Assembly (NCBI GenBank): GCA_028280405.1
Contig: JANQLW010000022.1
Coordinates: 64,212 to 128,211, forward strand
DNA length: 64,000 nucleotides
Reading direction: 5' to 3'
Source of the DNA: Bacteroidales bacterium
GTDB taxonomy: Bacteria; Bacteroidota; Bacteroidia; Bacteroidales; GCA-2711565
Position 1 is the first letter of the stretch. Each line of letters starts with the position of its first letter. Shown in pieces: positions 1,747 to 63,324 of this stretch. The notes under the pieces are model-generated. The model saw only the letters and a list, made by a program, of their open reading frames with translations. It was not told where the DNA came from and searched no databases. The position numbers and the translations under genes were made by a program.

Positions 1747-3852
1747 ATGAAAGCTCCGAAATTATTAGGACTATTAATTTTGTTAATTATGACAACAACT
1801 AATGTGATCGGTGCGGATAAGAACCCATTACTTGAAAAATGGAATACGCCTCACCAAACACCCCCGTTCGATCTTATCAAAACTGAACATATTAAACCTG
1901 CTATGGAAATAGCATTAAAAAAAGCTTATACCGAAATAAATGCAATTATCGACAGTAAAGAAAAACCAACATTTAAAAATACGATTGTTGCTTTAGAACT
2001 TGCCGGGAAAAGCTTAAATAAAGTTGCATACGTAATGTATAACTTAAATAGCACCGACACAAACCCTGAATTAATGGAGATTATGCGTGAGCTTGCACCT
2101 CAACTATCAAAATTCCAAACCTATGTATCTCTTCATCCAAAATTATTTGAAAAGATAAAAGTGATTTATGCAAAAAAAGCTCAGTTGAAGCTGGATGCTG
2201 AAAGTGCAAGGTTACTGGAAGAGAATTATAAAGGCTTTATCCGTTCAGGAGCAAACCTAAAAGGAGATGCTAAAAAACGTTATGCTGAGATCTCCGCTGA
2301 ACTAGCCAGGTTAACTTTAGAATTTGGAGAAAACGTCTTAAATGAAACCAATGCTTATTCTCTTCATGTAACCGATAAAAAAGATTTAAGTGGTTTACCT
2401 GAGCATGTGATCACGGGAGCCGCATATCTTGCAAAGCAAAATAAAAAAGAAGGCTGGATGTTTAATCTTCAGTTTCCTAGTTTTTATCCTTTCTTGAAGT
2501 TTGGTGACAACCGAAAATTAAGAGAAGAACTTTATATGGCTTATAATACCCGTGCTTTTAAAGATAATGAGTATAACAACGAAACCATTCTTAAAAAGAT
2601 CGCAGATTTACGTCTAGAGTCTGCAAAGTTATTAGGTTTTGAAAGCTATGCAGATTATGTATTGGATGAAAGAATGGCTCAAAGCAAAGAAAAAGTAAAT
2701 AATTTCCTCGAAGAATTACATCAAGCTTCCAGACCATTTGCTTTAAAAGAATACAAAGAAGTTCTTGAGCTTGCTAAAAAATCAGGTTTCAAAGGCGAAC
2801 TCAAACAATGGGATTGGAGCTATTATACCGAAAAACTCAAAGCTAAGAAATTCGGCTTTAAAGAATCAGATGTGAAACCTTATTTCCAATTGGAAAAAGT
2901 AACCAAAGGAATTTTCGATTTAGCAAATACATTATATGGTATAAGCTTTAAAGTAAATAGGGATATTCAGGTATATAATAAAGAAGTGAAAGCATATGAA
3001 GTTTATGATAAGGATGATTCGTTCTTAGGGGTTCTTTATATGGATTTCTTCCCTCGTCAAAGTAAGAGAGGTGGAGCGTGGAGTAGTTCATTCCGCTCTC
3101 AAAGCAATGTGAATGGAAAAATGATCCGTCCGTTCAAAACTGTAGTTTGTAATTTCACAAAACCAACCGAAGATATGCCTTCACTTTTAACTTTTGGTGA
3201 AGTAACTACCTACTTACATGAATTTGGGCATGCATTACACGGATTATTTGCAAACACAACTTATTCAAGTATGTCCGGAACAAGTGTTTACAGAGATTTT
3301 GTTGAACTTCCTTCACAAGTAATGGAAAACTATGCTTACGAAAAAGAATGGCTGGATACTTTTGCTGAACACTATAAAACAGGTGAAAAAATTCCTGTTG
3401 ACTTAGTTCAAAAAATAATTGATGCCCGTAATTTCTTAGCAGGATCTTTCAGCGAAAGACAATTAAGCTTAGGAATGTGTGATATGGCATGGCACAGCAT
3501 CACAAAACCTGTAAGCGATAAAAGTGTTAAAGATATTGAAACCGAATCCATGGCAGCAACCAGTGTTTTCCCAACCATTAAGGAAACTTCTACCAGTACT
3601 GCTTTCAACCATATTTTTTCAGGAGGATATGCTGCCGGTTACTATAGTTACAAATGGGCCGAGGTATTGGATGCGGATGCATTTTATTACTTCAAAGAAA
3701 ATGGAATCTTTAATAAAAAGATTGCTTCTTCTTTCCGTGAGCATATATTATCAAAAGGAGGCACGGAACATCCGATGAAGCTTTATGTGAAATTCAGAGG
3801 TAAAGAACCTTCGATTGATGGTTTGTTGAAAAGATCAGGATTGATGAGGTGA
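1747..3852 (+). CDS. dcp: M3-family peptidyl-dipeptidase (Dcp-like zinc metallopeptidase), secreted
   Basis: 701 aa with an N-terminal signal peptide and an HEFGH zinc motif (TYLHEFGHALHG). Length and overall pattern are typical of M3 oligopeptidase/Dcp. Confidence 0.85.
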   Translation: MKAPKLLGLLILLIMTTTNVIGADKNPLLEKWNTPHQTPPFDLIKTEHIKPAMEIALKKAYTEINAIIDSKEKPTFKNTIVALELAGKSLNKVAYVMYNLNSTDTNPELMEIMRELAPQLSKFQTYVSLHPKLFEKIKVIYAKKAQLKLDAESARLLEENYKGFIRSGANLKGDAKKRYAEISAELARLTLEFGENVLNETNAYSLHVTDKKDLSGLPEHVITGAAYLAKQNKKEGWMFNLQFPSFYPFLKFGDNRKLREELYMAYNTRAFKDNEYNNETILKKIADLRLESAKLLGFESYADYVLDERMAQSKEKVNNFLEELHQASRPFALKEYKEVLELAKKSGFKGELKQWDWSYYTEKLKAKKFGFKESDVKPYFQLEKVTKGIFDLANTLYGISFKVNRDIQVYNKEVKAYEVYDKDDSFLGVLYMDFFPRQSKRGGAWSSSFRSQSNVNGKMIRPFKTVVCNFTKPTEDMPSLLTFGEVTTYLHEFGHALHGLFANTTYSSMSGTSVYRDFVELPSQVMENYAYEKEWLDTFAEHYKTGEKIPVDLVQKIIDARNFLAGSFSERQLSLGMCDMAWHSITKPVSDKSVKDIETESMAATSVFPTIKETSTSTAFNHIFSGGYAAGYYSYKWAEVLDADAFYYFKENGIFNKKIASSFREHILSKGGTEHPMKLYVKFRGKEPSIDGLLKRSGLMR

Positions 3853-23286: not shown

Positions 23287-23718
23287 TTTTGCTTTACCCG
23301 CCAAACACCACACTCACAATATTGCTCTACTGCCCGGTCTCATCATCACCGCTCAGGCCAATTTTCTTCTTAGACCCACCCCGGCCCCTCCCTAAAAAAT
23401 CTACTCTTTATACACATCTTTTATCACAATACCGATTTTTTACCTTCCGAATGCTGAATATTGTTTTCAATGTTTTAAAATGAAATAAAATGGTGTCGTC
23501 CCTACAGGACTTATAATAGTTGTCTTCTATTATTTACTACTACCATACTTTAGCCCCTTTAGGGGCTAATCGAAGAACAATAGAAATTACTTATAGAGCC
23601 GTAGGCTCAAAATTATGGTAGTATATTATGATATGTGGGATTAAATAAAGTCCCGTTTAAAATTTCATGAAAGAGGAGTAAACCCCGGAATCTACTGGCA
23701 CAGATTCCGGGGAAATAT

Positions 23719-60010: not shown

Positions 60011-61060
60011 ATGAAATTATCTCAATTTAGATTTAACCTTCCACCGGAACTAGTTGCAAATCATCCTCAAGAAAACAGGGATGAATCAAAGCTTATGGTT
60101 TTGAACAGGAAGGAACAAACTATAGAACACAAAACTTTTAAAGATATTTTAGGATATTTTGATGACGGAGATGTATTTGTAATCAACAATACAAAGGTAT
60201 TTCCTGCTCGTTTGTATGGTGAAAAAGAAAAGACGGGAGCTAAAATCGAAGTATTTTTATTAAGAGAGCTGAACAGGGAAAGCAGGTTATGGGATGTATT
60301 GGTTGATCCGGCTCGTAAAATCCGAATAGGGAATAAACTTTATTTTGGAGATGATGACTCATTAGTTGCCGAAGTAATCGATAATACAACCTCCAGAGGC
60401 AGAACCTTACGTTTCTTATTTGACGGATCTTATGATGAATTTAAGAAAACTATTTATGGTTTAGGAAAAACTCCTCTTCCAAAAATTCATAAAAGAGATA
60501 CTATACCGGAAGATGAAGAACGTTATCAAACCATTTATGCTAAGCATGAAGGAGCTGTTGCCGCTCCGACAGCAGGATTGCATTTTAGTCGTGAATTAAT
60601 GAAACGCATGGAGCTTAAAGGTGTAACTTTCGCAGAAATTACACTTCATGCCGGTTTAGGTAATTTCCGTACCATTGAAGTAGAAGACCTGACCAAACAT
60701 AAAATGGATTCTGAAGAAGTTGTGATCAGCGACGAATGCACTAAAATAGTCAACACTGCTAAAGACTTTAAGAAAAGAGTTTGTGCTGTAGGTACCACTT
60801 CCATGAAAGCCATGGAAACCAGTGTTTCTATTGCAGGAAAGGTAAAACCTTTTAACGGATGGACTAATAAATTCATTTTCCCTCCATACGATTTTAGCGT
60901 AGCGAATTGTATGGTAAGTAATTTACATTTACCTCAATCATCGATGATGATGATGGTATCTGCTTTTGCAGGATATGATTTTCTAATGCAAGCCTATAAA
61001 GAAGCTGTAGAAAAAGAATACAAGTTTTTTACTTATGGCGATGCTATGTTGATATTATAA
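60011..61060 (+). CDS. queA: S-adenosylmethionine:tRNA ribosyltransferase-isomerase
   Basis: 349 aa. N-terminus [19 protein letters not shown], plus [19 protein letters not shown] and the LHLPQSS block. Confidence 0.92.
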
Positions 61061-61068
61061 AGTTTTGT

Positions 61069-61135
61069 GGTTATGCAGTTCATTAGCTACAAACTGCATA
61101 ACCGCATAACCGCATAACCGCATAACCGCATAACC
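61069..61135 (+). repeat. 12-bp hairpin followed by the 8-bp tandem repeat GCATAACC x5, ending 3 nt before the ispD start
   Basis: ggttatgcagtt (61069-61080) pairs with aactgcataacc (61092-61103). gcataacc repeats head-to-tail five times (61096-61135). Confidence 0.9.
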
Positions 61136-61138
61136 AAA

Positions 61139-61804
61139 ATGAAACAATCCGTTATCATCGTTGCCGGTGGCTCAGGTAGCCGGATGAATACAGAAATTCC
61201 CAAACAATTTCTGTTACTTAATGATAGACCTGTATTGTTTTATAGCCTTGAAGCCTTTTACAATTATAATCCGGATATTCAAATCCTATTAGTTCTCCCT
61301 CATATTCATATTGATTTTTGGAAATCACTTTGTAAAAAGTTTGATCTTAAGATTAAGCATGAAATTATTGAAGGAGGCAATACACGTTTTGTTTCGGTTA
61401 AAAATGGATTATCAGCAATAGAAGATGACTGTTTTGTTGCAGTTCATGATGGAGCGAGACCATTGATTACAGCAGATACTATTCATCATCTATTTGAAGA
61501 AGCAAAGAAGTATGGTAATGTAATTCCTGTAGTTGATATAAATGAATCCATTCGAGAAATATCTATTGATGGTAATAAAATAGCTGATCGATCTAAATTT
61601 AAATTGGTCCAAACTCCTCAAATATTCAAATCAGAAGATTTACATGCTGCCTATAAGCAGGAATATAAAACAGAATTTACTGATGATGCCAGTGTTGTGG
61701 AAACCTTAGGTATAAAAATACATTTAGCAGAAGGACAAGCAAACAATCTTAAAATCACCCAACCGTCTGACTTAAAAATTGCAGAAGCATTTCTTAAATT
61801 ATGA
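61139..61804 (+). CDS. ispD: 2-C-methyl-D-erythritol 4-phosphate cytidylyltransferase
   Basis: 221 aa. N-terminus IIVAGGSGSRM...PKQF, plus VHDGARP and VQTPQ. Confidence 0.9.
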   Translation: MKQSVIIVAGGSGSRMNTEIPKQFLLLNDRPVLFYSLEAFYNYNPDIQILLVLPHIHIDFWKSLCKKFDLKIKHEIIEGGNTRFVSVKNGLSAIEDDCFVAVHDGARPLITADTIHHLFEEAKKYGNVIPVVDINESIREISIDGNKIADRSKFKLVQTPQIFKSEDLHAAYKQEYKTEFTDDASVVETLGIKIHLAEGQANNLKITQPSDLKIAEAFLKL

Positions 61805-61825: not shown

Positions 61826-62196
61826 TTCAACCCCTCTGGGGTTGTGGTTTCATAGTATTCATTTGGGTATTAAAGTTAATCTCCTTCGGAGATTCAACAA
61901 GTCATATAATTAACGATCTTCACTATCGCCAAAGGCGATAAACAAAATACCCCCTGCCTAAGATATTTATGGCCAAGCCTGAAGGGCTTGAACCAACATA
62001 AGAAGAAACTTCAACCCCTCTGGGGTTGGGGTTTCAAGCTATTGTTCATTGGATTATTATGATTCATCTCCTTCTCAGATTCAATAAGTCGTATAATTAA
62101 TGGCTTTCATTATCGCCAAAGGCGATAAACAGAAATAACCCAAAACCAGGATATATATGACCAAGCCCGAAGGGCTTGAACTAACAGAAGAAAAAA
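61826..62196. repeat. Two tandem ~184-bp units, each carrying four 17-nt mini-hairpins (7-bp stem, 3-nt loop)
   Basis: Unit 1 is 61826-62009 and unit 2 is 62010-62196. Hairpins are caacccc-tct-ggggttg, aatctcc-ttc-ggagatt, tatcgcc-aaa-ggcgata and caagcc(t/c)-gaa-gggcttg. The array fills the whole convergent spacer between ispD and the GT2 gene. Confidence 0.9.
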
Positions 62197-63324
62197 CTAT
62201 AATTTTCTCCCTTTCCAGGTATTTCTTGTAAAGAAAGCCAGAATAGCCACAAGTGTAGTATAAAATGGATAAAATATTTGTACCGGTAAATAATACCACA
62301 TCAACGATTTCTTATTAAAGAATAAACAACCCGAAGACAATAAAGCAAAATCAGCCAGAATTTTTACTCCTAAACCTAAGATTCCATATCCTAATATGCT
62401 ATGGTTAAAAATACTTGCAATTACCAGAATACTAATAAGCAAATTATACAAGATAATAACAATGCCTGTAAAAATTGTCAGCTCGTCCTTATATGATTTA
62501 CTTTTAGATGCCCATCTTTTTCTTTGTCTTAATAATTCCCCGATACTACCGGCACTTTCCGTTGAAACAATAGCCAACTTATCTTTAAGAAAACATATAG
62601 CTTTGCTGCCAAAGTTTTTCTTTATTTTATGCAATAAAAAAACGTCATCTCCGGAAGCAATGTTTTTATTTCCAACAAATCCACTAACTTTTTCGAAAGC
62701 AGATTTCCTGAATGCCAGATTTGCTCCATTACACATTACAGGGCTTCCAATTCCTATTGCACCTGCTCCGGAAGTAATTAAACTAAGAAATTCAATGGAT
62801 TGAAATGCCTGAAAAAAAGATTTGCTATTTGAATAAGCAACCGGGCCCGAAACAAATAGAACTTGTTGTTCAGCAAACCTTTTTAATAATTTTTGTACCC
62901 ATAAGTTTCCAAGTCTGCAATCAGCATCAGTACAGATTATAACTTCTGAACTCGAAAATAAAATCGCCTGCTGAATGGCAGATTTCTTTCCATGATTACT
63001 TGCGTGCAACAACTTAATATTCATCTCAGGATGATCAAATATAAAATTATTCACAATTCTTGAAGACTGATCTTCCGAGTGATCATCTACTATAATTATA
63101 TTAAAATTTTTATATGATTGATTTTTTAAATCCTGAAGAAGATTATAAATATTTTCTTCTTCATTCCGCATAGCTACTATTACACTTGAGGAAATATCTG
63201 GAATTTCATAAAAATTATGGTTCCGTAGTCGAAACCAACCAATAGTAAACAGGGATATCAGGATAAAGTAAAGCCCTCCTAAAATGAGTAGCAACAAAAA
63301 ATATATGTTTATTTCATCAAGCAT
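62197..63324 (-). CDS. Family 2 glycosyltransferase with flanking TM helices
   Basis: 375 aa. GT2 motifs IIIVDDHSED and ICTDADC, a later QRKRW-type motif (LRQRKRWASK), and N- and C-terminal TM segments. Confidence 0.8.
   Translation of the reverse strand: MLDEINIYFLLLLILGGLYFILISLFTIGWFRLRNHNFYEIPDISSSVIVAMRNEEENIYNLLQDLKNQSYKNFNIIIVDDHSEDQSSRIVNNFIFDHPEMNIKLLHASNHGKKSAIQQAILFSSSEVIICTDADCRLGNLWVQKLLKRFAEQQVLFVSGPVAYSNSKSFFQAFQSIEFLSLITSGAGAIGIGSPVMCNGANLAFRKSAFEKVSGFVGNKNIASGDDVFLLHKIKKNFGSKAICFLKDKLAIVSTESAGSIGELLRQRKRWASKSKSYKDELTIFTGIVIILYNLLISILVIASIFNHSILGYGILGLGVKILADFALLSSGCLFFNKKSLMWYYLPVQIFYPFYTTLVAILAFFTRNTWKGRKL

What the first reader, a model, noticed from the sequence alone, without database searches (positions are those of the whole stretch)
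61826..62196. Tandem 2 x ~184-bp array of evenly spaced mini-hairpins filling a convergent spacer
Each unit carries four different 17-nt hairpins with identical geometry: a 7-bp stem closing in CC/GG and a 3-nt loop. They start at 61828, 61878, 61924 and 61974, and again at 62012, (degenerate) 62066, 62111 and 62162, so they are spaced 46-50 nt apart. By eye the units are about three-quarters identical, with identity concentrated in hairpins 1, 3 and 4. Hairpin 4 in unit 1 has a T-G pair that is a wobble only if the + strand is transcribed. It is not a CRISPR array, because the repeat sequences differ from each other and the spacers are conserved between units, and I see no coding potential. 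Similar GC-rich mini-hairpins at about 50-nt spacing occur at 23498-23608.
Basis: seen in the sequence. Interest (0 to 1): 0.6.

Follow-up and report, generated by a model that had tools for sequence, protein, structure and literature searches.

The report
Orphan REP-like hairpin repeat cluster
The evenly spaced mini-hairpins are a cluster of REP-like DNA repeats whose sister copies sit beside a small IS200-like (Y1) transposase gene elsewhere in the same genome; this is a known kind of repeat/enzyme partnership, but in an enzyme subclass that the published survey lists as having no such repeats.

Summary
Window 61826-62196 holds two tandem units (about 185 and 189 nt, 81% identical). Each carries four 7-bp, C-G-closed triloop hairpins 45-54 nt apart.

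It is not a CRISPR array, an Rfam RNA or a coding sequence. It is a dispersed, BIME-like cluster of a small REP-like family.
- The same module (hairpin plus a 3' AAC tail, about 50-nt period, first module inverted) occurs at five other loci of this genome.
- One of these directly abuts a 148-aa Y1/HUH transposase gene (G000:C35:60022-60468).
- That protein carries the TnpA-Y1 subclass 1.2 signature (Y..NQ..HH) of Quentin et al. 2018, who list this subclass as having no REPs.
- Across Bacteroidota, 30 of 30 and 79 of 80 homologous gene loci carry such hairpins within 500-600 nt, and the modal spacing is 50-59 nt.
- Three congeners have only 3-11 nt between ispD and the glycosyltransferase gene, so the 392-nt array is an insertion.

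Between the two units, stems differ at 4 of 56 positions and linkers at 32 of 121.

This scan has already noted the same enzyme-repeat pairing on many other genomes. The window's second hairpin site (23498-23620) belongs to a sister family linked to another Y1 gene.

The parts
61826..62009 (.). Unit 1 of the tandem pair (about 185 nt, four hairpin modules)
   Evidence: Alignment of the two units and BLAST at 81% identity
62010..62196 (.). Unit 2 of the tandem pair (about 189 nt). It ends at the stop codon of the glycosyltransferase gene.
61828..61844 (-). Hairpin 1, CAACCCC-TCT-GGGGTTG. It is an inverted module: the AAC tail is on the minus strand (5' GTT on the plus strand).
   Evidence: It is near-identical to GAACCCC-TCT-GGGGTTC beside the Y1 gene at G000:C35:59808.
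61878..61894 (+). Hairpin 2, AATCTCC-TTC-GGAGATT, followed by C+AAC
61924..61940 (+). Hairpin 3, TATCGCC-AAA-GGCGATA, followed by AAC
   Evidence: Related copies are at G000:C77:9656, C51:118281, C14:42014, C53:11126 and C73:27159.
61974..61990 (+). Hairpin 4, CAAGCCT-GAA-GGGCTTG, followed by AAC. The closing pair is T-G.
62012..62028 (-). Hairpin 1 of unit 2, identical in sequence to hairpin 1 of unit 1 and also inverted
62065..62081 (+). Degenerate hairpin 2 of unit 2, CATCTCC-TTC-TCAGATT. Two closing pairs are lost.
62111..62127 (+). Hairpin 3 of unit 2, TATCGCC-AAA-GGCGATA, followed by AAC
62162..62178 (+). Hairpin 4 of unit 2, CAAGCCC-GAA-GGGCTTG, followed by AAC
61139..61804 (+). ispD, the left flank gene of the insertion site
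   Evidence: Pfam PF01128, E = 4e-51. Its stop codon lies 3-11 nt from the glycosyltransferase stop in three congeners.
62197..63324 (-). Family-2 glycosyltransferase gene, the right flank gene, convergent with ispD
   Evidence: Pfam PF00535, E = 1e-25
23498..23620 (.). Second REP-like site in the window, from a sister family. A reverse-type module (ctACCATAct + TTAGCCCCTTTAGGGGCTAA) sits with a forward-type module (GAGCCGTAGGCTC + aaaATTATGGTAG).
   Evidence: The same tail type flanks the Y1 gene at G000:C48:12057-12515.

Best explanation
The array is a dispersed, BIME-like cluster of REP-like repeats.

The basic module is a 7-bp, GC-closed triloop hairpin followed by a conserved AAC. Modules repeat about every 50 nt, and the first module of an element is inverted.

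The family is the DNA partner of a small Y1/HUH single-strand-DNA transposase of TnpA-Y1 subclass 1.2. That gene lies outside the window at G000:C35:60022-60468 and is bracketed by the same modules.

Inferred steps:
- The enzyme recognises the hairpin plus its tag on single-stranded DNA, as IS608 TnpA and E. coli TnpA-REP do.
- It seeded a four-module block between the stop codons of ispD and the glycosyltransferase gene.
- The block was then duplicated in tandem by slippage or unequal recombination.
- The two copies have since diverged in their linkers, while the hairpins were kept either by selection for enzyme recognition or by palindrome-templated repair.

Any host role, such as protection of the 3' ends of the two convergent mRNAs or insulation between them, would be secondary and is not shown.
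For: 1. The same module recurs in this genome. There are 23 modules at six multi-module loci (C69, C35, C12, C14, C51, C77), all sharing stem geometry, a triloop and the AAC tail. A28 is present in 21 of 23, A29 in 23 of 23 and C30 in 17 of 23. Of 161 stem cells, 153 are Watson-Crick pairs, and five of the seven pair positions show changes on both sides.
2. One locus abuts a Y1 gene. Five modules lie at C35:59808-60019, the gene at 60022-60468, and a further module at 60538 on its other side.
3. The protein has the HuH motif NHIH, the WQ motif and YVRNQKEHH. This is the subclass 1.2 signature of Quentin et al. 2018 (PMC6006769).
4. The pairing is general.
   - A profile of five such proteins hits 233 of 401 genomes of the order.
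   - All 30 best loci have at least 2 GC-closed mini-hairpins within 500 nt, and 24 of 30 have them on both sides. Density is 7.0 per kb near the gene against 0.68 per kb farther away. Spacing peaks at 50-59 nt.
   - Of the 80 closest relatives of the C35 protein, 79 have at least 2 hairpins within 600 nt. A GAACCCC-NNN-GGGGTTC hairpin typically follows the stop codon, as in C35.
5. In a pattern scan of 401 genomes, paired ACCCC-NNN-GGGGT hairpins 28-42 nt apart occur in 29 genomes, against 1 for the reversed-pattern control. In nine genomes a hit lies within 350 nt of a subclass 1.2 gene.
6. It is an insertion. Three congeners keep queA-ispD facing the glycosyltransferase gene with only 3-11 nt between the stop codons, against 392 nt here.
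7. The first module of each unit is inverted, and stems are conserved relative to linkers.
Against: - No activity of any subclass 1.2 enzyme on hairpin DNA has been shown, and the published survey lists this subclass as having no REPs.
- The family is small, with about 25 modules, far below the hundreds typical of classical REPs.
- The tag is a 3' AAC rather than the 5' GTAG of classical REPs.
- The hairpins in this array (AATCTCC, TATCGCC, CAAGCCY) have drifted from the GAACCCC type beside the gene. Cognacy rests on shared architecture, the tail and hairpin 1, not on overall sequence identity. BLAST finds no second full unit.
- One genome (G014) has 10 array pairs but no detectable Y1 gene.
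- Transcription could not be examined.
Confidence: 0.8

Rival explanations
1. The array is a structured non-coding RNA or a 3'-UTR element. It would be transcribed from the plus strand downstream of ispD, and its hairpins would act as protein-binding or stabilising modules.
For: - The spacer folds much better than shuffles (z = -6.2).
- Stems are conserved relative to linkers between the units.
- The closing pair of hairpin 4 in unit 1 is a T-G, which is a wobble only in plus-strand RNA.
- REP clusters in Proteobacteria are known, from established literature, to stabilise upstream mRNA. A secondary RNA role is therefore compatible with the main reading.
Against: - No Rfam family matches at gathering score, and only noise appears at E < 10.
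- Hairpin 1 is inverted relative to hairpins 2-4.
- The same modules lie in divergent and co-directional spacers and flank a transposase gene.
- The minus strand folds equally well as DNA (z = -6.0).
- The spacer is absent in congeners.
- A single wobble is weak evidence.
Confidence: 0.08
2. The array is a stack of bidirectional transcription terminators or insulators that arose locally between two convergent genes.
For: - Four of the six loci of the family lie in convergent spacers.
- Perfect palindromes act on both strands.
- One terminator-like hit falls on the minus strand at 62028-62012.
Against: - Seven of the eight hairpins lack a T-run.
- Congeners manage with 3-11 nt between the same genes.
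- Eight hairpins are far more than termination needs.
- The family also occurs in a divergent spacer (C77) and next to a transposase gene.
Confidence: 0.05
3. Each 185-nt unit is a MITE with terminal inverted repeats (hairpin 1 against hairpin 4), mobilised by a DDE transposase of an unrelated insertion sequence.
For: - The unit ends are inverted copies of each other: GTTCAACCCC... at the left and ...GGGCTTGAAC at the right.
- Elements with 3, 4 and 5 modules exist, which recalls the modular BOX elements of Streptococcus pneumoniae (own knowledge).
Against: - I saw no target-site duplication at the three complete elements.
- No second full-length copy exists in the genome.
- The inverted repeat is itself the hairpin that flanks Y1 genes across the phylum. 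Y1 enzymes use hairpins rather than double-stranded inverted repeats.
Confidence: 0.05

Closest known systems
REP/BIME sequences with their RAYT (TnpA-REP) genes, or 'REPtrons', of E. coli, Pseudomonas and Stenotrophomonas (Nunvar 2010, PMC2817692; Di Nocera 2013, PMC3733652; Ton-Hoang 2012)
   Same: - Short GC-rich extragenic palindromes occur as singletons, dimers and regularly spaced clusters.
- Copies bracket a small Y1/HUH transposase gene.
- A short conserved tag sits at the foot of the hairpin.
- Clusters grow by tandem reiteration together with flanking DNA.
- They are preferentially placed at gene 3' ends.
   Different: - The enzyme is not a class 2 RAYT. The NCBIfam REP_Tyr_transpos model gives at most 27 bits against a cut-off of 80.
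- The tag is a 3' AAC, not a 5' GTAG.
- Stems are only 5-7 bp, with triloops.
- The strict period of about 50 nt runs mostly head-to-tail rather than in alternating orientation.
- The genome has about 25 copies, not hundreds.
TnpA-Y1 subclass 1.2 (Quentin, Siguier, Chandler, Fichant 2018, PMC6006769)
   Same: The protein beside the sister array has the defining Y---Q--HH motif, the DH[IV]H-like HuH motif and the WQ motif. It is about 148 aa long, present in low copy number, and from a Bacteroidota host.
   Different: That paper's Table 1 lists 'REP: no' for this subclass and describes it as generally lacking terminal secondary structures. Here nearly every locus examined (30 of 30 and 79 of 80) is flanked by mini-hairpin arrays.
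Subterminal hairpins of IS200/IS605 elements (IS608, ISDra2)
   Same: - IS608 TnpA is the closest solved structure by sequence (2a6m, E = 6.5e-4).
- Those enzymes recognise small imperfect hairpins plus a nearby tetranucleotide on one DNA strand (established knowledge).
   Different: - There is no IS-like unit with a single hairpin at each end.
- The gene copies in this genome are not identical (29-37% identity).
- The hairpins form arrays and are dispersed without the gene.
BOX elements of Streptococcus pneumoniae (boxA, a variable number of boxB, boxC); compared from my own knowledge
   Same: Both are modular intergenic repeats with a variable number of internal modules of about 45-50 nt between inverted terminal modules, and both are strongly folded.
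   Different: There is no sequence relation. BOX elements have no known Y1 partner and occur in a different phylum.

Membership tests
REP/BIME-RAYT system (REPtron) | Short GC-rich palindromic units repeated in extragenic DNA of one genome | tested here: met
   There are 23 modules at six multi-module loci plus a few singletons, all intergenic.
REP/BIME-RAYT system (REPtron) | Copies of the repeat flank a Y1/HUH transposase gene in the same genome | tested here: met
   The gene at G000:C35:60022-60468 has five modules on one side and one on the other. The same arrangement holds in 30 of 30 and 79 of 80 related loci.
REP/BIME-RAYT system (REPtron) | A conserved GTAG (or CGTC) tetranucleotide at the 5' foot of the hairpin | tested here: not met
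   The conserved tag is AAC immediately 3' of the stem, which reads as 5' GTT on the other strand. The sister family elsewhere in the order has hairpin + GAnATTAT(N)(G/A)TAG, with the TAG 10-13 nt away.
REP/BIME-RAYT system (REPtron) | The enzyme belongs to the RAYT / TnpA-REP clade (class 2, Y-motif YIxxNP) | tested here: not met
   The Y-motif is YVRNQKEHH. The NCBIfam REP_Tyr_transpos model gives no hit for the C35 protein and 24-27 bits for two of its paralogues, against a cut-off of 80. The IS200 model gives 53-74 bits.
REP/BIME-RAYT system (REPtron) | High copy number (tens to hundreds per genome) | tested here: not met
   This genome has about 25 modules. Other genomes of the order reach 40-70 adjacent pairs.
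REP/BIME-RAYT system (REPtron) | Clusters of regularly spaced units (BIME-like) | tested here: met
   Spacing is 45-54 nt here. The modal spacing in 30 related loci is 50-59 nt.
REP/BIME-RAYT system (REPtron) | The enzyme binds and cleaves the hairpin on single-stranded DNA | not testable with these tools
   This needs biochemistry.
TnpA-Y1 subclass 1.2 (for the partner gene) | Y---Q--HH motif, DH[IV]H-type HuH motif, WQ motif, about 148 aa, low copy number, Bacteroidota or Cyanobacteria host | tested here: met
   The protein is 148 aa and has NHIH, GWQ and YVRNQKEHH. The genome holds four diverged paralogues. Relatives are from Bacteroidales, Chitinophagales and similar groups.
CRISPR array | Identical direct repeats separated by unique spacers, usually with cas genes nearby | tested here: not met
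   The four hairpins differ from one another, and the 'spacers' are conserved between units. The only CRISPR-DR hit in Rfam scores 15 bits against a cut-off of 35.
Any Rfam RNA family | A covariance-model score at or above the family's gathering threshold | tested here: not met
   There were no hits in the window and none in ten related array loci.
Intrinsic terminator | A GC-rich hairpin followed by a T-run | tested here: not met
   Only one weak minus-strand match was found, at 62028-62012. The other hairpins are followed by AAC and A-rich sequence.

The most novel reading that the evidence does not exclude
Subclass 1.2 Y1 enzymes, so far described as orphan IS200 relatives without DNA partners, are active REPtron-type enzymes. 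They would build head-to-tail hairpin arrays of about 50-nt period because each module carries, in its AAC or ..TAG tag, the insertion target for the next. Arrays such as this one would then have been co-opted as insulators or 3'-end protectors between tightly convergent genes in Bacteroidota.
Probability: 0.2. Interest if true: 0.6.

Novelty: new variant of a known kind. Interest (0 to 1): 0.4.

Why it matters
It explains an odd-looking spacer as part of a genome-wide repeat system and ties an 'orphan' array to its probable enzyme on another contig.

More generally, it adds to the evidence that a widespread Bacteroidota branch of IS200-like enzymes has cognate hairpin repeats. That branch is found in 233 of 401 genomes sampled in this order. 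The repeats have a characteristic period of about 50 nt and tags that differ from the classical GTAG, and the only survey of this subclass did not report them.

That gives a concrete substrate for testing what these enzymes do. It also warns annotators that such arrays are not CRISPRs or small RNA genes.

Tried and rejected
- Tandem Repeats Finder did not call the 185-nt period.
- Rfam gave nothing at gathering score for the window or for ten related loci, and only noise at E < 10.
- BLASTN of the whole unit found no other full copy in the genome and none in 60 relatives. The family is visible only at module level.
- A regex for the sister-family tail (ATTAT..TAG) and a loosened hairpin+AAC scan that allowed G-T pairs were both swamped by AT-rich background. 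The loosened scan gave 236 hits against 206 in the reversed-genome control. I used them only to pick out a few obvious extra copies.
- MAFFT mis-gapped two modules, so I counted pairs on the ungapped register instead and built no covariance model.
- The short ATG-initiated frames that run through hairpin 4 are in different frames at different loci. I dropped a micropeptide reading after inspecting.
- The CRISPR, terminator-stack and DDE-MITE readings were considered and ranked low; see the rival explanations.

Full report
**Observation**

The spacer between ispD (61139-61804, +) and a family-2 glycosyltransferase gene (62197-63324, -) is 392 nt long. It consists of two tandem units, 61826-62009 and 62010-62196. 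They align over 189 columns at 81% identity.

Each unit carries four different 17-nt hairpins, each a 7-bp stem with a CC/GG closure and a 3-nt loop.
- The copy at 62065/6 is degenerate.
- The closing pair of the copy at 61974 is T-G.
- Spacing is 45-54 nt inside a unit and 38 nt across the junction.

Tandem Repeats Finder missed the 185-nt period. The spacer folds much better than shuffled controls on either strand, with z about -6.

**More than chance**

The genome is 3.87 Mb at 34% G+C. It holds only 186 CC-NNN-GG hairpins with stems of at least 5 bp. Eleven consecutive pairs of them lie 45-54 nt apart, where about 0.1 would be expected from their density.

**What else in the genome looks like it**

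BLAST of a whole unit finds no second copy in the genome and nothing in 60 relatives. A hairpin census shows the same kind of array at five further loci:
- C35:59808-60019, with 5 hairpins
- C12:6925-7044, with 3 hairpins
- C14:42015-42079, C51:118282-118349 and C77:9655-9721, with 2 hairpins each

The first hairpin of each complete element is inverted. Once it is reverse-complemented, all 23 modules fall into one register: a 7-bp stem, a triloop, and then AAC. The tail is well conserved, with A28 in 21 of 23, A29 in 23 of 23 and C30 in 17 of 23.

Of 161 stem cells, 153 are Watson-Crick pairs, 2 are G-T and 6 are unpaired. Five of the seven pair positions show changes on both sides, for example CG/GC/TA at pair 4.

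Complete elements have one inverted module followed by 2, 3 or 4 direct ones. Four of the six loci lie in convergent spacers, one in a co-directional spacer and one in a divergent spacer.

**The link to an enzyme**

A search of the genome for Pfam Y1_Tnp (PF01797) gave four strong hits. One, C35:60022-60468 on the minus strand, starts 3 nt from the last hairpin of the C35 array. Another module, GAATCAC-GAA-GTGATTC+AAC, lies 70 nt beyond its other end.

The 148-aa protein has the HuH motif NHIH, the motif GWQ, and YVRNQKEHH. That Y---Q--HH signature, the length and the Bacteroidota host define TnpA-Y1 subclass 1.2 in Quentin et al. 2018 (PMC6006769).

- NCBIfam places it nearest IS200 (53 bits, below the 55-bit cut-off) and not in the REP-associated tyrosine transposase model.
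- The nearest solved structure by sequence is IS608 TnpA.
- Quentin et al. list this subclass as 'REP: no' and as generally lacking terminal secondary structures.

**Is the pairing general?**

A profile of five such proteins finds the gene in 233 of 401 genomes sampled from the same order. In the 30 best loci:
- every one has at least two GC-closed mini-hairpins within 500 nt of the gene, and 24 have them on both sides;
- hairpin density is 7.0 per kb near the gene against 0.68 per kb beyond 900 nt;
- spacing peaks sharply at 50-59 nt.

Stem sequences differ from genome to genome (ACCCC, ATCCC, GTCCC, GCTCC, GAGCC, GCCAC and others) while pairing is kept. Blocks of reverse-oriented modules are typically followed by forward-oriented ones, as in the units here.

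Independently, a pattern for two ACCCC-NNN-GGGGT hairpins 28-42 nt apart hits 29 of 401 genomes. The reversed-pattern control hits one. Some genomes have tandem runs of eight or more near-identical 53-55-nt units. In nine genomes a hit lies within 350 nt of a subclass 1.2 gene.

For the closest relatives of the C35 protein itself (55-66% identity, mostly Bacteroidales and Chitinophagales MAGs), 79 of 80 loci carry such hairpins. A GAACCCC-NNN-GGGGTTC hairpin typically sits just after the stop codon, as in C35, and AAC/AAT-tailed hairpins lie upstream.

One counter-example is G014, which has ten array pairs but no detectable Y1 gene.

**Insertion**

Three congeners keep the queA-ispD genes facing the glycosyltransferase gene, with only 3-11 nt between the two stop codons. 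The 392-nt array is therefore an addition in this lineage.

The C35-type enzyme also has no close orthologue in 12 congeners, where the best match is 41-44% identity. It reaches 63-66% identity in other Bacteroidales lineages. This suggests the system arrived by horizontal transfer. That is an inference.

**Mechanism**

What is shown:
- the module architecture;
- its recurrence in the genome;
- its physical association with subclass 1.2 Y1 genes;
- the insertion relative to congeners;
- the tandem duplication;
- the slower divergence of stems than linkers (4 of 56 against 32 of 121 positions, p = 0.0025).

What is inferred from the known behaviour of IS608 TnpA and E. coli TnpA-REP:
- the enzyme recognises the hairpin and its AAC tag on single-stranded DNA and moves or copies modules;
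- head-to-tail arrays of constant period arise because a module carries the preferred target for the next, or through slippage;
- the four-module block here was duplicated later.

A host role in mRNA 3'-end protection or insulation between the convergent genes is possible but untested.

**Comparison with known systems**

It works like a REP/BIME-RAYT system. It fails several membership criteria of the classical family: the enzyme is not class 2, the tag is not GTAG, the stems are shorter and the copy number is low.

It is not a CRISPR array, an Rfam family or a set of canonical terminators.

In the held library I found no paper after Quentin et al. 2018 that uses their terms 'REPtron' or 'TnpAY1', and none that describes repeats for subclass 1.2. 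This scan's own earlier notes report the same pairing on many other genomes. I reached it independently before reading them, and I tested it on 110 loci.

**Verdict**

The feature is an orphan cluster of a REP-like family that belongs to a subclass 1.2 Y1 transposase. I class it as a new variant of a known kind, of moderate interest.

Noticed in passing
A reverse-type module (ctACCATAct + TTAGCCCCTTTAGGGGCTAA) sits with a forward-type module (GAGCCGTAGGCTC + aaaATTATGGTAG). The same (A)TATGGTAG tail type flanks another Y1 gene at G000:C48:12057-12515, and further copies lie at C65:18129-18261.
   Followed up: partly
G000:C2:25790-26634 (outside the window; L066:1243-1803 minus strand): A 186-aa RAYT with NHIHLL and YIHQNP, the signature of Quentin subclass 2.6. 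It is flanked by a different hairpin repeat of about 30-nt period (CTGAGGC-NNN-GCCTCAG / AAAGGCTNAGCCTTT). That repeat recurs at about ten other loci (C27, C35:8875, C58:114119, C61:9646, C70:9035, C71, C80:1361, C84). The genome therefore hosts at least two classes of REPtron.
   Followed up: partly
G000, many contigs (for example C12:46355, C21:261, C60:5061, C88:916): The 19-mer CCTGCCTGCGGCAGGCAGG occurs at least 12 times in the genome. It is another short palindromic repeat, not assigned to any system.
   Followed up: no
G000:C55:7212-7667 (outside the window): One of the four subclass 1.2 Y1 genes has an in-frame TAA near its start, so it is probably a pseudogene. It keeps its own flanking hairpins, TGTCC-TAC-GGACA and AAGCCC-TAGC-GGGCTT.
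   Followed up: partly
window 61092-61135: An 8-nt tandem repeat, AACCGCAT x 5.5, fills the queA-ispD spacer and ends 3 nt before the ispD start codon.
   Followed up: no
G014 (another genome of the order), for example C1:1529-1595: Ten pairs of TGACCCC-GTA-GGGGTCA-type hairpins at about 54-nt spacing, but no Y1 transposase gene detectable in a 99% complete genome. The arrays can outlive, or exist without, the enzyme.
   Followed up: partly
G000:C35:60022-60468 compared with congeners: The Y1 gene next to the sister array has no close orthologue in 12 congeners (best 41-44% identity). It has relatives at 63-66% identity in other Bacteroidales MAGs, which suggests horizontal acquisition of the whole gene-plus-repeat system.
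   Followed up: partly
L072 (G154:C6), 1926-2634 minus strand: Long open reading frames of 129-216 aa run through a tandem hairpin array and encode repeated peptide motifs. They are probably artefacts of the repeat, but gene callers could annotate them as proteins.
   Followed up: no
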